Shown here piece after piece: positions 2,587 to 47,877 of a DNA stretch of 64,000 nucleotides; the stretch's first letter is position 1, and each line of letters starts with the position of its first letter. The notes beneath the pieces were generated by a model, which was not told the origin of the DNA, ran no database searches, and saw only the letters and a list, made by a program, of their open reading frames with translations. The stretch lies in NCBI RefSeq assembly GCF_988242995.1, contig NZ_OZ547043.1; one strand, given 5' to 3'. The translations under genes and the position numbers were made by a program.

Positions 2587-4065
2587 ATGTCGAAAAAATA
2601 CATCATAGGGATTGATGGTGGAAGTCAGAGCACAAAAGTGGTGATGTACGATCTGGAAGGTAATGTGGTTTGCGAAGGCAAAGGCTTATTGCAGCCGATG
2701 CACACGCCAGATGCCGATACCGCAGAACATCCTGACGACGATTTATGGGCATCATTATGCTTTGCCGGTCACGATTTGATGAGTCAGTTTGCCGGAAATA
2801 AAGAAGATATTGTCGGTATTGGTCTGGGATCCATCCGTTGCTGCCGTGCGTTATTGAAAGCCGATGGCACGCCAGCTGCGCCGTTGATTAGCTGGCAGGA
2901 TGCACGCGTTACACGCCCTTACGAACATACGAATCCTGACGTGGCATATGTCACCTCTTTTTCAGGTTATCTGACGCATCGCTTAACCGGCGAGTTTAAA
3001 GACAATATCGCCAACTATTTTGGTCAGTGGCCGGTGGATTATAAGACCTGGGCATGGAGTGAAGATGCCGCAGTCATGGAGAAGTTTAATATCCCCCGTC
3101 ATATGCTGTTTGATGTGCAAATGCCGGGCACTGTTCTTGGGCATATCACTCCTCAAGCCGCGCTGGCGACACATTTCCCGGCTGGGCTGCCGGTTGTTTG
3201 TACCACCAGTGATAAACCGGTTGAAGCACTGGGAGCTGGGTTACTGGATGATGAAACGGCGGTAATTTCTCTTGGCACTTACATCGCGCTGATGATGAAC
3301 GGCAAAGCACTGCCGAAAGATCCGCTGGCGTACTGGCCGATTATGTCTTCTATTCCGCAAACATTGCTGTATGAAGGTTACGGTATCCGCAAAGGCATGT
3401 GGACGGTGAGCTGGCTACGCGACATGCTAGGCGAGTCGTTAATTCAGGATGCCAAAGCACAGGATCTTTCACCGGAAGATTTACTCAACAAAAAAGCGTC
3501 TTGTGTGCCGCCAGGCTGTAATGGTCTGATGACGGTGCTGGACTGGCTGACCAATCCGTGGGAACCGTACAAACGCGGGATTATGATCGGCTTTGATTCC
3601 AGCATGGATTACGCATGGATATATCGTTCGATACTGGAAAGCGTGGCGCTGACGCTGAAGAACAATTTCGACAATATGTGTAATGAAATGAATCACTTTG
3701 CAAAGCATGTGATCATTACTGGCGGCGGTTCGAACAGCGATCTGTTTATGCAGATTTTTGCCGACGTGTTCAACCTTCCGGCACGCCGTAACGCCATTAA
3801 TGGTTGTGCAAGCCTGGGGGCAGCGATTAATACGGCGGTAGGTCTGGGGCTATACCCGGATTACGCAACGGCTGTCGACAAAATGGTTCGCGTGAAAGAT
3901 ATCTTTATGCCTGTTGAGAACAATGCCAAACGCTACGACGCGATGAATAAAGGCATTTTCAAGGAGTTAACCAAACATACTGATGTAATCCTGAAAAAAT
4001 CGTATGAAGTGATGCATGGGGAATTGGGGAATGCGGATTCGATCCAGAGCTGGTCGAATGCGTAA
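2587..4065 (+). CDS. ygcE: FGGY-family carbohydrate kinase
   Basis: 492-aa ORF; N-terminal IGIDGGSQSTK sugar-kinase fold motif; RBS aggaga 7 nt upstream. Confidence 0.85.
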   Translation: MSKKYIIGIDGGSQSTKVVMYDLEGNVVCEGKGLLQPMHTPDADTAEHPDDDLWASLCFAGHDLMSQFAGNKEDIVGIGLGSIRCCRALLKADGTPAAPLISWQDARVTRPYEHTNPDVAYVTSFSGYLTHRLTGEFKDNIANYFGQWPVDYKTWAWSEDAAVMEKFNIPRHMLFDVQMPGTVLGHITPQAALATHFPAGLPVVCTTSDKPVEALGAGLLDDETAVISLGTYIALMMNGKALPKDPLAYWPIMSSIPQTLLYEGYGIRKGMWTVSWLRDMLGESLIQDAKAQDLSPEDLLNKKASCVPPGCNGLMTVLDWLTNPWEPYKRGIMIGFDSSMDYAWIYRSILESVALTLKNNFDNMCNEMNHFAKHVIITGGGSNSDLFMQIFADVFNLPARRNAINGCASLGAAINTAVGLGLYPDYATAVDKMVRVKDIFMPVENNAKRYDAMNKGIFKELTKHTDVILKKSYEVMHGELGNADSIQSWSNA

Positions 4066-4111
4066 GTGAGGAAGACCGGGCGGGAAACTGCCCGGCCTGA
4101 ACATACCTGAA

Positions 4112-4249
4112 TGGTTATCCCCGCTGGCGCGGGGAACATAAGTTCGACAACTTAAAAAATGATAACAAGTCCGGTTTATCCCCGCTGATGCAGGGAACAT
4201 AATAAAAACTTTAACTAGTTCGGTTTATCCCTGTTTTTACAAGGAATAT
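4112..4249 (-). CRISPR. Degenerate short CRISPR locus: three decayed type I-E-like repeats
   Basis: Repeat-like units at 4112-4139, 4172-4200 and 4221-4249 resemble cggtttatccccgctggcgcggggaactc with increasing divergence; first spacing about 32 bp, second only 20 bp. Confidence 0.6.
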
Positions 4250-4700
4250 TAACTACACTCGATGTATTTAGAATAAAAGACAATACGAATCGCACTTTAT
4301 CAATTTTCACTTAAAGTATGAACTGGATATCTTTATTCATAAGAACTATTCATCAACAGCGTATAGAGGCGATTATGTAAAACCACTCATTAGCCTCAAA
4401 ACAAAGACAAATTTCCAGATTTATTACTTAATCAATGAATAACAAGCTTAAAAAATACACTGTTATTCTAAAGAAAAAATTAACAGGCATTAATTAATAT
4501 TAAAAAAATAATATGTTAAAATTTCTTAACGGTTTAAGGATTATACAAATAACACTTTGATTAAATTTTATTTTTTGTATCGATAATTGTGAACTTGTCA
4601 TATATGGAGAGCTATTTTGAACATGAGGTGTTACGTGGATATGTTGCTTAATACGAGTACTGCTAATATAAAAACTTGAGAAAGAGATAACGGGTTATAT
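4250..4700 (-). promoter_or_regulatory. AT-rich tract between the two CRISPR loci; positionally the leader of the degenerate array
   Basis: Strongly AT-rich non-coding stretch on the same side of the repeats as the leader of the main array. Confidence 0.35.
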
Positions 4701-4702
4701 GG

Positions 4703-5219
4703 TGGTTTATTCCCGCTGGTGCGGGGAACTCATCAGTGATATCCAACATTGCGGAGCTAAACGCGGTTTATCCCCGCTGGCGCGGGGAACTCAATTAGCC
4801 CGCCTCGCGCGGGTTTTTTTGTGCCGGTTTATCCCCGCTGGCGCGGGGAACTCTTTACTTATCTGCAAATATTTTTTGTCAGCTGCGGTTTATCCCCGCT
4901 GGCGCGGGGAACTCACGAACGCGGCACACCAGGGCGTCTCATCGTCCGGTTTATCCCCGCTGGCGCGGGGAACTCGAACACGACAGGAGTGATAAATGTA
5001 CGCACATCGGTTTATCCCCGCTGGCGCGGGGAACTCGGCTGATAGTGCTTCTGATTATTCGGCGCAAGCGGTTTATCCCCGCTGGCGCGGGGAACTCTAG
5101 GACCCAATATAAAACCGACTGGTTATTTTCGGTTTATCCCCGCTGGCGCGGGGAACTCTTTCAGTCTGGAACACAACGGCGTTAAATAACCGGTTTATCC
5201 CCGCTGGCGCGGGGAACTC
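4703..5219 (-). CRISPR. Type I-E CRISPR array, 9 repeats of 29 bp and 8 spacers of 32 bp; terminal repeat at 4703-4731 is degenerate
   Basis: Repeats start at 4703, 4764, 4825, 4886, 4947, 5008, 5069, 5130, 5191 with an exact 61-bp period; minus-strand repeat is GAGTTCCCCGCGCCAGCGGGGATAAACCG, the canonical E. coli I-E repeat. Confidence 0.95.
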
Positions 5220-5420
5220 ACTAAACATAACCTATTATTAATTATTGATTTTTTAAGTCAGTCACAATCTACCAACTTAACAGAAACACACAAACAACAC
5301 ATCCATTATGTTAAAGAGCACTTAATTCATTGATTGAAAAGCCAAATATTTAAAGTAATTCTATACCGACTAAAATCCACCAAACTCCGACGTAATAATT
5401 TTCACTCCAACGAAAAATTA
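5220..5420 (-). promoter_or_regulatory. CRISPR leader (AT-rich, adjacent to the newest repeat)
   Basis: AT-rich sequence abutting the intact repeat at 5191-5219, opposite the degenerate end; typical leader position. Extent is approximate. Confidence 0.55.
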
Positions 5421-5558
5421 ACGCCACAGAATTTGTAGATAATGACAATGATTAGTCCGGAATGGGCAAAATGGATGAGTTTTCAGAGGCGACAAAAAAT
5501 ATAAATGAGTGGAAGTCTTTACAGGTTCCACCCATTTATAACGCTTATAAATGTTTAA

Positions 5559-6230
5559 TCAGGCAATATTTAAATATTTATGTGTTTGCATCGACAAACG
5601 CCAGTTGCGCGCAATGCACGTATCGATACATAAACGAGTAGCATCTTCCTTTTGGCTAATCGGCTGCAGCGCAATGACTCGCGGTTTATCATCGGTCAGT
5701 GTTGCCAGTAGTTCATCCAGTGCTTCAATATCACGCACGCGTCCCACTGGATGCTTGATTTCGTTGGCTCGCTCCAGTGCCTGTGACAACACTTCATAGC
5801 CGCCGCGCATGTTCAGCTTTGGCGATACGGTAACCCAGGTATTCGGTGTGCAGCGTACTTCATGAGTACCACTGGTTTCGATCTGGCAGCTAAAACCGTT
5901 CTTTTCGAGCAGGTCAGTCAGTGGCAGCAAATCATGAATGCAAGGCTCACCACCCGTAATCACCACATGCCGCGCGGTGTATCCCTGGCGACCAATGACA
6001 GCCAGCAAGTCTTCACTGCTCGCCGCCCCCCACTTATCACTCTCTTTGGTCTTCGCCAGAATGCTGAAAAGGGAGACTTCCCGATCCTCAAGCTTTTCCC
6101 AGGTGTGTTTGGTGTCGCACCAGGCACAGCCAACCGGGCATCCCTGTAAACGAATAAAAATGGCGGGGACGCCGGTAAAGTAACCCTCACCTTGCAGGGT
6201 CTGGAACATCTCGTTAATCGGGTACTGCAT
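5559..6230 (-). CDS. queE: 7-carboxy-7-deazaguanine synthase (radical SAM, queuosine biosynthesis)
   Basis: 223-aa ORF with CxxxCxxC-type cluster motif region (LQGCPVGCAWCDTKH). Confidence 0.9.
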   Translation of the reverse strand: MQYPINEMFQTLQGEGYFTGVPAIFIRLQGCPVGCAWCDTKHTWEKLEDREVSLFSILAKTKESDKWGAASSEDLLAVIGRQGYTARHVVITGGEPCIHDLLPLTDLLEKNGFSCQIETSGTHEVRCTPNTWVTVSPKLNMRGGYEVLSQALERANEIKHPVGRVRDIEALDELLATLTDDKPRVIALQPISQKEDATRLCIDTCIARNWRLSMQTHKYLNIA

Positions 6231-8841: not shown

Positions 8842-10494
<1,653 letters not shown>

Positions 10495-10706
10495 TTAGGT
10501 TGAAAAGACGATGGAATAACCAGGACGGGAAAGCAGTATACCCGAACATGACCTGTGCCACAAACTTTCATTATCCCTCCTCTTCGCCAGCGCACTATTG
10601 AAATCAGGAGTGAGAAAATAGCCCCTTTGGGGTAAATGTTTTTGACGCAAATCAAGCGCTTGTCATTTAAAAAATGACACAAATCGCGCTTGACCACGTA
10701 ATTCCC

Positions 10707-11498
10707 TTAGAGATCAATTTCCTGCCGTTTTACCTGTTGCCAGACTTCTTCCATTGTTTCGAGGTCAACACCTGTCATTTCCAGTCCACGCGCGGCAACA
10801 ATACGCTCCACTTCGCGAAAACGACGCTCGAATTTTTCATTGGCTTTTTGCAATGCGATTTCCGCTTTTGTCCCTAAATGACGAGCCAGATTGACCGTGG
10901 CAAACAGCAGGTCGCCCATTTCCTCCTCCAGTTTAGCCTGGTCGATAACAGCCTGCCGTGCCTCGTACATCACCTCGTCGATCTCTTCGTAGACTTTATC
11001 GACTACCGGACCAAGCGTCGTCCAGTCAAAACCAACGTTGGCGCAACGTTTCTGGATTTTTTGTGCACGCATTAATGCCGGTAAACTACGAGGAATATCG
11101 TCCAGCGCCGAATGCTGCGCTTTCTGCGCGCGCTCTTCGGTTTTGATTTGCTCCCAACGGGCAAGCACTTCACTACTGTTTTCGGCAGAACTGTCAGCAA
11201 AAACATGCGGATGGCGACGTTCTAATTTATCGCTGATCGCGGCGCAAATATCATTAAAGTCAAAGCGCCCTTCTTCCTGGGCCATTTGTGCGTAAAACAC
11301 CACCTGGAACAGCAGATCGCCCAGTTCACCGCGCAGATCGTCAAAATCTTCACGGGCGATGGCGTCCAGCACCTCGTAGGTTTCTTCAAGGGTGTAAGGC
11401 GCAATGGTGGCAAATGTCTGCTCTTTATCCCACGGGCAGCCGTTTTCCGGGTCGCGCAGGCGCTGCATGATGGTGAGCAAACGGTCGATTTGATTCAT
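10707..11498 (-). CDS. mazG: Nucleoside triphosphate pyrophosphohydrolase
   Basis: 263-aa ORF with tandem MazG-type domains (EEXXE motifs). Confidence 0.9.
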   Translation of the reverse strand: MNQIDRLLTIMQRLRDPENGCPWDKEQTFATIAPYTLEETYEVLDAIAREDFDDLRGELGDLLFQVVFYAQMAQEEGRFDFNDICAAISDKLERRHPHVFADSSAENSSEVLARWEQIKTEERAQKAQHSALDDIPRSLPALMRAQKIQKRCANVGFDWTTLGPVVDKVYEEIDEVMYEARQAVIDQAKLEEEMGDLLFATVNLARHLGTKAEIALQKANEKFERRFREVERIVAARGLEMTGVDLETMEEVWQQVKRQEIDL

Positions 11499-11556
11499 TG
11501 AATTGTCCTGAAAATTGCGGGTCTGTCAGGTGTAATACCTTCGAGTAAAAGATATC

Positions 11557-11584
11557 GCTGGATACGGCTGACGCCATATCCAGC
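11557..11584 (-). terminator. Hairpin directly after relA stop (gctggata-N12-tatccagc); possible relA terminator or attenuator
   Basis: 8-bp perfect inverted repeat read from sequence; followed on minus strand by a weak T-tract (gatatctttt). Confidence 0.3.
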
Positions 11585-11593
11585 TATGTAAGA

Positions 11594-13828
11594 CTAACTC
11601 CCGTGCAACCGACGCGCGTCGATAACATCCGGCACCTGGTTGAGTTTACCCAGCACGCGGCCCAGCACTTGCAGGTTGTAAATCTCAATGGTCATGTCGA
11701 TGGTCGCCAGTTGCTGTTTGGTGTCGCTACGGCTGGCAACGCCAAGCACGTTCACCTTCTCGTTGGCGAGAATGGTCGTGATATCACGTAACAACCCACT
11801 ACGATCATTAGCCACCACGCGGACCACCAGCGAATATCCGGCGGAGTAGCTCTCGCCCCATACCGCGTCAACAATGCGTTCTGGCGCATGGGAGCGCAGT
11901 TCCGCCAGTTGCTCACAGTCTGCACGATGCACTGAAATACCGCGTCCCTGGGTAATGAAGCCGACAATCTCATCTCCAGGAATCGGCTGGCAGCAGCGCG
12001 CGATGTGGTGCATCAGGTTACCGACACCTTCAACCACCACACGACCGTTATCTTTACTGCGGTTTTGCGGCGTGTAGCTTTTTTGCTGAAGTTGCTTCAG
12101 CGCGGCGGCGTCCTGCTCTTCGGCACTCGGCTTATTAAATTGCGATTGCAGGAAGTTCACCATCTGATTGAGACGGATATCCCCGCCACCAATCGCCGCC
12201 AGCAACTCGTCGACATCATTGAAGTTGTAACGCGGCAGCAGATGTTTTTCTGCTTCTTTCAGGCTGATCCCCAGATGTTCCAGCTCGTCGTCAAGGATTT
12301 GCCGCCCAGCCAGAATGTTTTTGTCACGGTCCTGTTTACGGAACCAGGCGTGAATTTTCGAACGCCCACGGCTGGTTGTGACGTAACCGAGGTTTGGGTT
12401 TAACCAGTCACGGCTGGGGTTCGGCTGTTTCTGGGTGATAATTTCAATCTGGTCGCCCATCTGCAGCTGGTAGGTGAACGGCACAATGCGCCCGCCAATT
12501 TTTGCCCCGATGCAGCGGTGTCCGACATCACTGTGGATGTGGTAAGCGAAGTCCAGCGGTGTTGATCCCGCAGGCAAATCAACGACATCACCTTTCGGCG
12601 TAAAGACGTACACCCGGTCGTCAAAGACCTGGCTACGTACTTCGTCGAGCATTTCGCCGGAATCAGCCATCTCTTCCTGCCACGCAATCAGTTTACGCAG
12701 CCAGGCAATCCGGTCTTCATGTCCCGAACGTGCGCCGCCAGCTGCCGCGCCCTCTTTATATTTCCAGTGCGCAGCAACACCCAACTCTGCATCTTCATGC
12801 ATCTGTTTAGTGCGGATTTGGATCTCAACGGTTTTGCCACCTGGTCCCAGAACCACGGTATGAATAGACTGATAACCGTTTGGTTTCGGGTTAGCGACGT
12901 AATCGTCAAACTCATCCGGCAGGTGGCGATAGTGAGTGTGCACTATCCCCAGTGCGGCATAACAATCCTGTAAACGCTCGGCGACAATACGTACCGCACG
13001 CACATCAAACAGCTCATCGAAGGCGAGGTTCTTTTTCTGCATTTTGCGCCAGATGCTGTAGATGTGTTTCGGACGACCATACACTTCAGCTTTAACGCCT
13101 TCAGCTTTCATCTCAGCGCGCAGATGGCCGACAAACTCTTCGATATAGTGTTCGCGGTCGAGACGGCGTTCATGCAGCAGTTTTGCGATGCGTTTGTATT
13201 CGGTCGGGTGGAGATAACGGAAGCAGTAATCTTCCAGCTCCCATTTCAGTTGTCCAATCCCAAGACGGTTCGCCAACGGCGCGTAGATATTGGTGCACTC
13301 TTTTGCCGCCAGTACGCGTTCATCTTCCGGCGCGTCTTTTACTTCGCGCAGATGAGCAATACGCTCTGCCAGTTTGATGACCACGCAGCGAAAATCATCG
13401 ACCATCGCCAATAACATCCGGCGAACGTTATCGACCTGTTCGGAGGAAACAGAATCGGTATGCGTCGCTTTCAGCTGGCGGATCGCCGCCATATCACGCA
13501 CGCCGTGAATAAGGTTAACGACCGACTTACCGACGCTCTCACGCAGCACATCTTCGCTGACTACGTTGGCATCCGCCAGAGGGAACAGCAGCGCCGCCCG
13601 CAGCGTGTCAATGTCCATACTTAATGTCGAGAGGATCTCCACCATCTCAACACCACGCCACAATAACAGACTGGCATCCGGATGCCCCTGCGTCTGTTGC
13701 AGACAATACGCCCAGGTTTCGGCTAAGCACTCACACGACTTCTGGCTGGTAATACCCAGACTTGCGATCCATTTTTCCGGATCAAATTCACCAGCCTTAT
13801 TGATATGTGCACTTCTTACCGCAACCAT
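11594..13828 (-). CDS. relA: GTP pyrophosphokinase, (p)ppGpp synthetase I
   Basis: 744-aa ORF with RelA/SpoT synthetase domain, TGS and ACT regions. Confidence 0.95.
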   Translation of the reverse strand: MVAVRSAHINKAGEFDPEKWIASLGITSQKSCECLAETWAYCLQQTQGHPDASLLLWRGVEMVEILSTLSMDIDTLRAALLFPLADANVVSEDVLRESVGKSVVNLIHGVRDMAAIRQLKATHTDSVSSEQVDNVRRMLLAMVDDFRCVVIKLAERIAHLREVKDAPEDERVLAAKECTNIYAPLANRLGIGQLKWELEDYCFRYLHPTEYKRIAKLLHERRLDREHYIEEFVGHLRAEMKAEGVKAEVYGRPKHIYSIWRKMQKKNLAFDELFDVRAVRIVAERLQDCYAALGIVHTHYRHLPDEFDDYVANPKPNGYQSIHTVVLGPGGKTVEIQIRTKQMHEDAELGVAAHWKYKEGAAAGGARSGHEDRIAWLRKLIAWQEEMADSGEMLDEVRSQVFDDRVYVFTPKGDVVDLPAGSTPLDFAYHIHSDVGHRCIGAKIGGRIVPFTYQLQMGDQIEIITQKQPNPSRDWLNPNLGYVTTSRGRSKIHAWFRKQDRDKNILAGRQILDDELEHLGISLKEAEKHLLPRYNFNDVDELLAAIGGGDIRLNQMVNFLQSQFNKPSAEEQDAAALKQLQQKSYTPQNRSKDNGRVVVEGVGNLMHHIARCCQPIPGDEIVGFITQGRGISVHRADCEQLAELRSHAPERIVDAVWGESYSAGYSLVVRVVANDRSGLLRDITTILANEKVNVLGVASRSDTKQQLATIDMTIEIYNLQVLGRVLGKLNQVPDVIDARRLHGS

Positions 13829-13875
13829 CGTCCTCTCCTTTAGGGACCAGACCTGCCGAAATCGGCAAATCGTAA

Positions 13876-24249: not shown

Positions 24250-24293
24250 AAAGCAACCTCAATAAGAAAAACTGCCGCGAAGGATAGCAGGAA

Positions 24294-24660
24294 TAAAAAA
24301 AGGGAGCACTGTATTCACAGTGCTCCCGGTTCGTTTCGCAGCATTCCAGCTACTTTTGTTGCTCCCTGCTCATCCTTGACAACTTTTCCTCTGGCCTTGC
24401 GGCCAATCGTTCATCCTGAACTATTGCTTCCTGCTCACACCACCCCGATGTGATACTTCATCCTGAAGTGTCCCTGGCCTTCCTGACCCACCGAATCATC
24501 CTGACCGGTTCTCATTCTCCATCCTGGAGGTGTCCTTTAACGCGTCCTGCGTCATCCTCTTCGCTTCATCCAGAAGCCTTTCCCTGAAACACCATCCTGG
24601 TGTGTCCTTCAGAAGTGTCATCATCCTGATGTTCACTTCGTTGTCTGACTCCCTGTCGAC
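24294..24660 (-). ncRNA. csrB: CsrB small RNA (CsrA-sequestering), with 3' intrinsic terminator
   Basis: Minus strand begins gtcgacagggagtc and carries many CAGGA(U/A)G repeats (seen as catcctg on the + strand); ends in hairpin gggagcactgtgaatacagtgctccc plus U-run (24294-24327). Confidence 0.9.
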
Positions 24661-42880: not shown

Positions 42881-43086
42881 ACTTCCTGAGCCGGAACGAA
42901 AAGTTTTATCGGAATGCGTGTTCTGGTGAACTTTTGGCTTACGGTTGTGATGTTGTGTTGTTGTGTTTGCAATTGGTCTGCGATTCAGACCATGGTAGCA
43001 AAGCTACCTTTTTTCACTTCCTGTACATTTACCCTGTCTGTCCATAGTGATTAATGTAGCACCGCCTAATTGCGGTGCTTTTTTTT
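42881..43086 (+). ncRNA. gcvB: GcvB small RNA (Hfq-dependent)
   Basis: Begins acttcctgagccggaacgaaaag, contains the GU-rich gttgtgatgttgtgttgttgtgtttg region and ends in gcaccgcctaattgcggtgc plus U-run. Confidence 0.9.
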
Positions 43087-46039: not shown

Positions 46040-46250
46040 TTAAAAAGGGCGAGGTTATCCCTCACCCTAAACGCATAAATGCCTGATGCGCTACGCTTAT
46101 CAGGCCTACATAACTCCTGCAATATTTTGGATTTGCATGATTTGTAGGCCGGATAAGGCGTTCACGCCGCATCCGGCATGAACAACGCGCACTTAGTCAA
46201 TAATCAGGATGTGAGGTTACCCCTCACCCTGTCATATCCGTAAAAACGGC
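46040..46250. repeat. Composite REP cluster flanked by near-identical GGTGAGGG-type hairpin units
   Basis: REP units gcctgatgcgctacgcttatcaggcctaca and gtaggccggataaggcgttcacgccgcatccggca; flanking repeats gaggttatccctcaccct (46052-46069) and gaggttacccctcaccct (46215-46232). Confidence 0.7.
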
Positions 46251-47559: not shown

Positions 47560-47571
47560 CGCATCCACGGA

Positions 47572-47648
<77 letters not shown>

Positions 47649-47681
47649 ATTAAAATTTGATGAAGTAAAGCAGTACGGTGA

Positions 47682-47758
<77 letters not shown>

Positions 47759-47792
47759 ATCAAAATTTGATGAAGTAATAGCAGTACGGTGA

Positions 47793-47869
<77 letters not shown>

Positions 47870-47877
47870 ATTATTGA

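What the first reader, a model, noticed from the sequence alone, without database searches (positions are those of the whole stretch)
4703..5420. Intact type I-E CRISPR array with leader, but no cas genes anywhere in the 64 kb
Nine 29-bp repeats at an exact 61-bp period separate eight 32-bp spacers; the repeat distal to the AT-rich leader is degenerate, so the polarity is clear (leader at 5220 onward, minus-strand transcription). The minus-strand repeat is the canonical E. coli I-E repeat. This is the only part of the window carrying strain-specific, horizontally acquired information, and the spacers record past invaders. Whether the array is functional depends on a cas operon located outside this window.
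Basis: partly seen in the sequence, partly recalled or inferred. Interest (0 to 1): 0.55.

Follow-up and report, generated by a model that had tools for sequence, protein, structure and literature searches.

The report
Ordinary E. coli CRISPR-II array
This is the well-known second CRISPR array of Escherichia coli (between ygcE and queE); its cas genes normally lie about 17 kb away, just beyond the left edge of the window, so their absence from the window is expected.

Summary
Nine 29-bp repeats lie at 4703-5219 with an exact 61-bp period. Eight are identical and the leader-distal one has 3 mismatches. They separate eight 32-bp spacers, and an AT-rich leader follows at 5220-5558. The window contains no cas gene.

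The locus is the classical E. coli CRISPR-II locus (ygcE-queE/ygcF intergenic region). Flanks and leader are 96% and 90.5% identical to K-12.

In K-12, in MEI003 and in strain MEW, a complete type I-E operon plus the CRISPR-I array lies between cysH and iap, about 17 kb beyond ygcE. MEW is the only one of 5,426 complete E. coli genomes with the same eight spacers. By synteny, cas3 would start about 12.3 kb left of window position 1.

Three spacers have protospacers with the canonical AWG PAM. Spacer 1 matches 32/32 (ATG) in a P2-family prophage endolysin gene. Spacer 6 matches 32/32 (AAG) in a prophage tail gene. Spacer 5 matches 30/32 (AAG) in an Aeromonas phage. Spacers 2, 3, 4 and 8 have no match. 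There is no self-target in the window.

Verdict: already known and ordinary.

The parts
2587..4065 (+). ygcE (FGGY-family sugar kinase), left flank of the CRISPR-II locus
   Evidence: ORF. FGGY kinase families. Annotated ygcE under the match in E. coli genomes.
4111..4249 (-). CRISPR2.2 remnant: three degenerate repeats (4111-4139, 4172-4200, 4221-4249), one 32-bp spacer (4140-4171) and one 20-bp spacer (4201-4220)
   Evidence: Repeat family D1/D2. Repeats 4172 and 4221 are identical to the K-12 copies. All three still fold into the 7-bp hairpin.
4250..4702 (.). AT-rich (27% GC) 0.45-kb stretch separating CRISPR2.2 from CRISPR2.3
   Evidence: Window 4066-4702 is 96.4% identical to K-12 over 638 bp. 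GC content. No ORF of 50 aa or more. PMC3903273 describes CRISPR2.2 and 2.3 as separated by 0.5 kb.
4703..5219 (-). CRISPR2.3 (CRISPR-II) array: 9 repeats of 29 bp and 8 spacers of 32 bp, transcribed from the minus strand
   Evidence: The repeat folds into a 7-bp stem with a 4-nt loop, -15.1 kcal/mol, z = -3.6.
4703..4731 (-). Leader-distal degenerate repeat (3 mismatches, weakened hairpin)
   Evidence: Folds at -9.8 against -15.1 kcal/mol.
5159..5190 (-). Spacer 1 (leader-proximal, newest): GTTATTTAACGCCGTTGTGTTCCAGACTGAAA
   Evidence: 32/32 protospacer with ATG PAM in the M15 endolysin gene of a P2-family prophage of E. coli 40EC. The same match occurs in at least 7 other genomes.
5098..5129 (-). 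Spacer 2
   Evidence: No protospacer in phages, plasmids, E. coli genomes or IMG/VR. One SNP relative to MEW.
5037..5068 (-). Spacer 3
   Evidence: No protospacer found.
4976..5007 (-). Spacer 4
   Evidence: No protospacer found.
4915..4946 (-). Spacer 5: old spacer shared by many E. coli CRISPR-II arrays
   Evidence: 30/32 with AAG PAM in a lysis-cassette gene of Aeromonas phage phiARM81ld. In the E. coli arrays listed it lies adjacent to spacer 8.
4854..4885 (-). Spacer 6: CAGCTGACAAAAAATATTTGCAGATAAGTAAA
   Evidence: 32/32 with AAG PAM in a prophage tail protein gene of E. coli GF43. 31/32 in prophages of many other genomes, ST131 among them (most of the 437 matching genomes), and in phage vB_EcoM-569R10, where the PAM is AGG.
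4793..4824 (-). Spacer 7: terminator-like hairpin sequence
   Evidence: Terminator-like site on the + strand. Only weak hits (27/28) to intergenic terminators of Drexlerviridae phages, with the non-canonical CAG at the PAM position.
4732..4763 (-). Spacer 8 (oldest, leader-distal anchor spacer)
   Evidence: Found only inside CRISPR arrays of other E. coli genomes. No protospacer.
5220..5558 (-). Leader 2.3 (AT-rich, 31% GC), expected to carry the array promoter and the integration signals
   Evidence: 90.5% identical to the K-12 CRISPR-II leader with no gaps. The ~115 nt next to the first repeat are nearly invariant among window, MEW, MEI003 and K-12. A promoter-like site lies at 5261->5234 on the minus strand, a weak 9/12 match.
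5559..6230 (-). queE (= ygcF), right flank of the CRISPR-II locus
   Evidence: TIGR04322 rSAM_QueE_Ecoli, 368.8 bits against a cut-off of 200. Annotated queE.

Best explanation
This is the CRISPR-II locus of Escherichia coli, made of the CRISPR2.3 array, its leader and the degenerate CRISPR2.2 remnant, in its invariant chromosomal position between ygcE and queE (ygcF). It is one of the two arrays served in trans by the single type I-E cas operon (cas3-casABCDE-cas1-cas2). That operon sits next to the other array (CRISPR-I) between cysH and iap, about 17 kb beyond ygcE and so about 12 kb outside the left edge of the window. The expected mechanism is the established I-E pathway, inferred here rather than shown. 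The leader promoter drives minus-strand transcription of a pre-crRNA. Cas6e cuts at the base of each repeat hairpin to give 61-nt crRNAs (8-nt AUAAACCG 5' handle, 32-nt spacer, 21-nt 3' hairpin). Cascade loaded with these guides binds protospacers flanked by an AWG PAM and recruits Cas3. Cas1-Cas2 adds new spacers at the leader-proximal repeat. The spacers are a record of past encounters, at least partly with P2-like and other myovirus-type temperate phages. As in other E. coli, the system is probably largely silenced by H-NS under ordinary conditions. The apparent lack of cas genes results from where the window begins.
For: Shown directly:
- Nine repeats and eight spacers at a 61-bp period, none expected by chance.
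- The flanking genes are ygcE and queE.
- The region 4066-4702, including the CRISPR2.2 remnant, is 96.4% identical to K-12. The leader is 90.5% identical to the K-12 CRISPR-II leader.
- The repeat folds into the 7-bp Cas6e-type hairpin.
- No Cas homologue occurs in the window.

By comparison:
- In K-12, MEI003 and MEW, a complete I-E operon plus a CRISPR-I array lies between cysH and iap.
- MEW shares all eight spacers and is 99.0-99.3% identical over at least 60 kb of the window. Its cas3 starts 17.0 kb from the array's distal repeat, which is 12.3 kb beyond the point equivalent to window position 1.
- Strain 50579417, which shares spacers 5 and 8, also has the full operon about 18.5 kb from its array.
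- 2,419 of 5,426 complete genomes carry at least 80% of this operon variant.

Spacer origin:
- Protospacers with canonical PAMs exist for spacer 1 (32/32, ATG), spacer 6 (32/32, AAG) and spacer 5 (30/32, AAG) in phage or prophage genes.
- This matches the CWT (= AWG) acquisition motif reported for the non-K-12 I-E variant (PMC3737337, abstract).

Literature:
- PMC3903273 describes this exact locus layout and the conserved leader 2.3.
- PMC4782391 summarises H-NS repression and LeuO relief.
Against: The cas operon itself is not in the window, so its presence and integrity in this genome are inferred from relatives only. Some E. coli lineages lack cas-E or have it disrupted by IS elements (PMC3903273). 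Only about 45% of complete genomes carry at least 80% of the variant found in MEW. K-12-type carriers were not counted. Transcription, processing and interference were not and cannot be tested here. The promoter-like match in the leader is weak (9/12) and such matches are not enriched over shuffles. Four of the eight spacers (2, 3, 4, 8) have no identifiable target.
Confidence: 0.9

Rival explanations
1. It is a true orphan array. The genome this window comes from has lost its type I-E cas genes, for example by IS-mediated deletion at the iap-cysH locus. The CRISPR-II array would then be an inert fossil that is neither processed nor extended.
For: No cas gene in 64 kb. PMC3903273 reports E. 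coli lineages without cas-E that still keep a conserved leader 2.3. Only 2,419 of 5,426 genomes carry at least 80% of the MEW-type operon, while 3,504 of 5,426 match the array query through its repeats.
Against: The only genome with the same spacers, which is also 99% identical over at least 60 kb, has a complete uninterrupted operon. Eight of nine repeats are perfect and the leader is intact. The three traceable spacers have correct PAMs. The expected position of cas lies outside the window, so its absence from the window carries no weight.
Confidence: 0.08
2. The array and cas genes are both present and are naturally active in this lineage, not merely a silenced relic. Spacer 1 would give current immunity against a P2-family temperate phage, and the lineage would still be acquiring spacers.
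For: Leader-proximal spacer 1 has perfect 32/32 protospacers with an ATG PAM in prophages of present-day E. coli. The sister strain MEW has one extra unique leader-proximal spacer. No self-target was seen in the window, and MEW has no match to spacers 1-4, 6 or 7 outside its own array.
Against: The MEW difference also includes a duplicated spacer 1, which points to repeat recombination rather than clean acquisition. It could equally be a two-unit deletion in the window's strain. The extra MEW spacer has no identifiable protospacer. No other spacer maps within 12 kb of the spacer 1 protospacer, so there is no sign of priming. E. coli I-E is generally H-NS-silenced and a defence role is not evident (PMC3903273, PMC4782391).
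Confidence: 0.2
3. The repeats are not a CRISPR array but another kind of interspersed repeat (REP/BIME-like) or a chance periodicity.
For: Tandem Repeats Finder did not list it and Rfam returned no CRISPR family at gathering threshold.
Against: Eight exact 29-bp copies at an exact 61-bp period, with none expected by chance. Unique 32-bp spacers, three of them with phage protospacers and PAMs. Annotated as CRISPR in thousands of RefSeq genomes. TRF misses it because the unrelated spacers lower the unit-to-unit identity.
Confidence: 0

Closest known systems
E. coli K-12 MG1655 CRISPR-II locus (CRISPR2.2 + CRISPR2.3, ygcE-ygcF/queE intergenic region)
   Same: Same chromosomal position and flanking genes. 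Same degenerate CRISPR2.2 remnant, with two repeats identical. The same ~0.45-kb AT-rich separator, at 96.4% identity over window 4066-4702. The same leader (90.5%), the same orientation, and the same 29-bp repeat and 32-bp spacer geometry.
   Different: The spacers are entirely different (8 here, 6 in K-12). Most K-12 CRISPR-II repeats begin GTG... in crRNA sense, whereas here they begin GAG... as in K-12 CRISPR-I. The likely partner cas operon is the common non-K-12 variant, whose Cascade and Cas3 proteins are only 21-35% identical to K-12's.
CRISPR-II array of E. coli strain MEW (NZ_CM192120.1, ivory gull, Poland)
   Same: All eight spacers in the same order, an identical leader and 99.3% identical flanks. 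It is the only such genome among 5,426.
   Different: MEW has one SNP in spacer 2, a duplicated spacer 1 and one additional unique leader-proximal spacer, giving 11 repeats against 9.
Unsplit CRISPR2.2-3 arrays, e.g. E. coli MEI003
   Same: Same locus and leader. queE-pyrG flank 100% identical.
   Different: MEI003 has one continuous array of about 19 repeats running from the ygcE side to the leader. Its repeats carry a variant (CGCTCGCGCG), it has no AT-rich separator, and none of its spacers is shared.
Genuine orphan CRISPR arrays (e.g. the CRISPR4.1-2 remnants of E. coli strains without cas-F genes; PMC3903273)
   Same: No cas gene is adjacent to the array.
   Different: Here the distance to cas is a fixed feature of a two-array system served by one operon. 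The array has a conserved leader and perfect repeats, and the cas operon is expected about 17 kb away.

Membership tests
Type I-E CRISPR array (E. coli type 2 repeats) | Direct repeats of 29 bp matching GAGTTCCCCGCGCCAGCGGGGATAAACCG, regularly spaced | tested here: met
   Eight exact copies and one with 3 mismatches at a 61-bp period, none expected by chance. Identical to the K-12 CRISPR-I repeat.
Type I-E CRISPR array (E. coli type 2 repeats) | Unique spacers of about 32 nt between repeats | tested here: met
   Eight different 32-bp spacers.
Type I-E CRISPR array (E. coli type 2 repeats) | The repeat RNA forms the stable stem-loop recognised by Cas6e | tested here: met
   Predicted 7-bp stem and 4-nt loop, -15.1 kcal/mol, z = -3.6. 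This is a prediction only; cleavage was not tested.
Type I-E CRISPR array (E. coli type 2 repeats) | Protospacers flanked by the I-E PAM (AAG/ATG on the crRNA-like strand) | tested here: met
   Spacer 1 ATG (32/32), spacer 6 AAG (32/32), spacer 5 AAG (30/32). Spacer 7 is ambiguous. Spacers 2, 3, 4 and 8 have no target.
Type I-E CRISPR array (E. coli type 2 repeats) | Cognate type I-E cas genes in the same genome | not testable with these tools
   None in the window. They are present about 17 kb from the array in MEW, MEI003, K-12 and 50579417. The source genome outside the window is not available.
Type I-E CRISPR array (E. coli type 2 repeats) | Transcription from the leader and processing into 61-nt crRNAs | not testable with these tools
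   Only a weak promoter-like match in the leader. This needs RNA data.
E. coli CRISPR-II locus (CRISPR2.2/CRISPR2.3) | Located between ygcE and ygcF (queE) | tested here: met
   ygcE at 2587-4065 and queE at 5559-6230. Definition taken from PMC3903273.
E. coli CRISPR-II locus (CRISPR2.2/CRISPR2.3) | Conserved leader 2.3 adjoining the array on the queE side | tested here: met
   90.5% identical to K-12 over 338 bp with no gaps. The repeat-proximal ~115 nt are nearly invariant in 4 strains.
E. coli CRISPR-II locus (CRISPR2.2/CRISPR2.3) | Short CRISPR2.2 array about 0.5 kb from CRISPR2.3 on the ygcE side | tested here: met
   Three degenerate repeats at 4111-4249, the same as in K-12.

The most novel reading that the evidence does not exclude
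The lineage represented by this window and by gull isolate MEW has a naturally active I-E system. On this reading the newest spacer, a perfect match with an ATG PAM to a P2-family prophage endolysin gene circulating in present-day E. coli, gives real immunity. The extra leader-proximal spacer in MEW would be a recent natural acquisition event. This would be one of the few documented cases of ongoing CRISPR adaptation in wild E. coli.
Probability: 0.2. Interest if true: 0.35.

Novelty: already known. Interest (0 to 1): 0.07.

Why it matters
It matters little beyond correct annotation. The locus is a textbook feature of E. coli genomes, and the missing cas genes follow from where the window begins. 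The spacer set is rare: the full set occurs in 1 of 5,426 complete genomes. It could serve as a strain-typing marker. It also records contact with P2-like and other myovirus-type temperate phages, including a prophage family widespread in ST131. The comparison with strain MEW gives a small, testable hint of recent array turnover at the leader end.

Tried and rejected
- Rfam at gathering thresholds found CsrB, GcvB, three tRNA-Met genes and ES036, but no CRISPR repeat family. This is uninformative.
- Tandem Repeats Finder did not list the array. That is expected, because the spacers are unrelated.
- Self-targets: no second copy of any spacer with 9 or fewer mismatches anywhere in the 64 kb.
- Spacers 2, 3, 4 and 8 had no hits in INPHARED phages or PLSDB plasmids, apart from a mis-filed chromosome's own array. 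E. coli genomes gave hits only inside CRISPR arrays. IMG/VR patterns with N at every sixth position also found nothing.
- Spacer 7 gave only terminator-like partial hits with a non-canonical CAG at the PAM position. I do not count it as a protospacer.
- Priming signature: no other spacer, and not the extra MEW spacer, maps within the 12 kb around the spacer 1 protospacer or the 6 kb around the spacer 6 protospacer.
- The extra MEW spacer has no match in E. coli genomes outside MEW's own array.
- IHF consensus WATCAANNNNTTR: one exact match lies in the leader (5323-5335, minus strand) and one in the separator (4550-4562). Seven matches in the window against 2.8 expected is not significant.
- Similarity between leader 2.3 and the AT-rich 4250-4702 stretch, tested as a possible degenerate second leader: nothing beyond chance.

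Full report
**1. Checking the observation**

The sequence at 4703-5219 contains nine copies of a 29-bp repeat. A search for CGGTTTATCCCCGCTGGCGCGGGGAACTC with up to three mismatches finds them at 4703, 4764, 4825, 4886, 4947, 5008, 5069, 5130 and 5191. Eight are exact and the copy at 4703 has three mismatches. No match occurred in 100 dinucleotide-preserving shuffles.

The period is exactly 61 bp. The reverse complement, GAGTTCCCCGCGCCAGCGGGGATAAACCG, is identical to the repeat of the K-12 CRISPR-I array. As RNA it folds into a 7-bp stem with a 4-nt loop (-15.1 kcal/mol, z = -3.6). The degenerate distal copy folds more weakly, at -9.8 kcal/mol.

The stretch 5220-5558 is 31% GC against 51% for the whole window.

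**2. Identifying the locus**

The array lies between a FGGY-family kinase gene (2587-4065, +) and queE (5559-6230, -; TIGR04322, 368.8 bits against a cut-off of 200). RefSeq E. coli genomes annotate the matching region as ygcE | CRISPR | queE, and 5,424 of 5,426 complete genomes match the 1.7-kb query. The queE-pyrG flank is 100% identical to E. coli MEI003, and is at least 95% identical in all 5,425 genomes that match it. The organism is therefore E. coli.

Compared with K-12 MG1655:
- Window 4066-4702 aligns to the K-12 ygcE-queE intergenic region at 96.4% over 638 bp.
- The leader 5220-5558 aligns at 90.5% without gaps.
- The ~115 nt nearest the first repeat are almost invariant among the window, MEW, MEI003 and K-12.

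Two of them are identical to the K-12 copies, and all three keep the hairpin. This is the CRISPR2.2 remnant. It is separated from the main array (CRISPR2.3) by a 453-bp stretch of 27% GC.

This layout is exactly the one described in the literature. The CRISPR-II locus lies between ygcE and ygcF, with CRISPR2.2 and CRISPR2.3 separated by 0.5 kb and a conserved leader next to CRISPR2.3. The eight cas-E genes and CRISPR2.1 form the CRISPR-I locus between iap and cysH (PMC3903273).

**3. Locating the cas genes**

tblastn of sixteen Cas proteins against the window gives no hit better than E = 0.048. The queries were the full I-E sets of MEW and of K-12, which are two very different variants: 21-35% identity for Cas3 and four Cascade subunits, CasB not alignable (E = 4.9), and 84% for Cas1 and Cas2. 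The window is colinear at 99.0-99.3% with MEW from ygcW to recC, and no cas gene is annotated in that stretch. So the window has no cas gene.

The genomes that could be inspected show where cas lies:
- In MEW, a complete cas3-casA-casB-cas7e-cas5e-cas6e-cas1e-cas2e operon followed by a second array lies between cysH/hok and iap.
- MEI003 and K-12 have the same arrangement.
- In MEW, cas3 starts 17.0 kb from the distal repeat of the CRISPR-II array. That is 12.3 kb beyond the position equivalent to window base 1.
- Strain 50579417, which shares spacers 5 and 8, also has the whole operon about 18.5 kb from its array.
- 2,419 of 5,426 complete genomes carry at least 80% of this operon variant.

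The lack of cas in the window is therefore what the known architecture predicts for a window that begins in ygcW. It is not evidence for an orphan array.

**4. Spacer content**

I number the spacers from the leader, in crRNA (minus-strand) sense.

Sharing with other genomes:
- Only one of 5,426 complete genomes, strain MEW (ivory gull, Poland), has the full set, at 99.8% identity.
- MEW differs by one SNP in spacer 2, a duplicated spacer 1 and one extra unique leader-proximal spacer.
- Spacers 5 and 8 are old anchor spacers. In the genomes listed, they sit next to each other without spacers 6 and 7 (771 genomes match at least one spacer). This fits the literature statement that shared spacers lie at the leader-distal end (PMC3903273).

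Protospacers:
- Spacer 1 matches 32/32 with an ATG PAM in the M15-family endolysin gene of a P2-family prophage in E. coli 40EC, and in at least seven other genomes.
- Spacer 6 matches 32/32 with an AAG PAM in a prophage tail protein gene of strain GF43.
- Spacer 6 also matches 31/32 in prophages of many other genomes, ST131 among them (most of the 437 matching genomes), and in phage vB_EcoM-569R10, where the PAM reads AGG.
- Spacer 5 matches 30/32 with an AAG PAM in a lysis-cassette gene of Aeromonas phage phiARM81ld.
- Spacer 7 is itself a terminator-like hairpin. It gives only partial matches to phage intergenic terminators, without a canonical PAM.
- Spacers 2, 3, 4 and 8 have no protospacer in INPHARED, PLSDB, the E. 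coli genomes or IMG/VR.
- No spacer has a second copy in the window, so there is no self-target here.

The ATG/AAG PAMs agree with the CWT (= AWG) acquisition motif reported for the non-K-12 I-E variant (PMC3737337, abstract). That is the variant MEW carries.

**5. Mechanism**

What is shown is the anatomy: repeats, hairpin, leader, polarity, PAM-flanked protospacers and the syntenic position of cas.

What is inferred comes from the established I-E pathway. The leader promoter drives minus-strand transcription. Cas6e cleaves at the hairpin base to give 61-nt crRNAs. Cascade recognises targets with an AWG PAM and Cas3 degrades them. Cas1-Cas2 integrates new spacers at the leader-proximal repeat.

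In K-12, transcription of Cascade, Cas1-Cas2 and CRISPR is repressed by H-NS and relieved by LeuO (PMC4782391 and references there). A defensive role in natural E. coli is described as not evident (PMC3903273). The most likely state is therefore a competent but largely silent system.

**6. Rivals**

A genuinely orphan array cannot be excluded from the window, because cas-less lineages do exist. I put it at about 8%. The nearest relative has an intact operon, and the repeats and leader are pristine.

A naturally active, currently adapting system is possible, at about 20%. The support is a perfect PAM-flanked target for the newest spacer and one extra leader-proximal spacer in MEW. However, the MEW difference includes a duplication typical of repeat recombination. 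The extra spacer has no identifiable source, and there is no priming signature.

A non-CRISPR explanation is excluded.

**7. Novelty and verdict**

Every feature matches a locus described in detail years ago. Only the particular spacer set is rare. This is an already known, ordinary element.

Two corrections apply. The absence of cas reflects where the window starts. The locus also includes the CRISPR2.2 remnant at 4111-4249.

Interest is low.

Noticed in passing
window 4111-4249: Three degenerate CRISPR repeats (the CRISPR2.2 remnant) lie 0.45 kb from the main array. Their sequence has drifted, but each still folds into the 7-bp hairpin, partly through paired changes such as CCUUGU/ACAGGG.
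   Followed up: yes
L005 36428-37554 (E. coli MEI003): The strain with the most similar queE-pyrG flank (100%) has a completely different, unsplit array of about 19 repeats. It runs from ygcE to the leader, and most of its repeats carry a single-base variant (CGCTCGCGCG instead of CGCTGGCGCG). Array content is thus decoupled from flank similarity.
   Followed up: partly
window ~10480-13830 (mazG-relA interval): By synteny with MEW, mazG and relA are separated by only about 95 bp. A K-12 MazF sequence recalled from memory gives no tblastn hit in the window. The mazEF toxin-antitoxin pair of K-12 therefore seems to be absent here.
   Followed up: partly
window 46068-46213: This is the only break in the otherwise colinear 99% alignment with strain MEW. 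It is about 145 bp long and overlaps the Rfam hit to the ES036 (CssrF) sRNA at 46102-46144 on the minus strand.
   Followed up: no
window 4699-4992 and 4821-5042 (+ strand): Open reading frames of 97 and 73 codons run through the CRISPR repeats. They are artefacts of the repeat sequence, and a gene caller could mis-annotate them.
   Followed up: no
window 47570-47871; 24292-24651; 42881-43086: There are three tandem identical initiator-type tRNA-Met genes in a 110-bp unit, and the CsrB and GcvB small RNA genes. All are standard core-genome features of this E. coli region.
   Followed up: no
L008 6001-6032 (E. coli GF43) and many ST131 genomes: The spacer 6 target lies in a prophage tail gene. 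With one mismatch at spacer position 1, it is present in most of the 437 E. coli genomes that matched, including the ST131 clone.
   Followed up: partly
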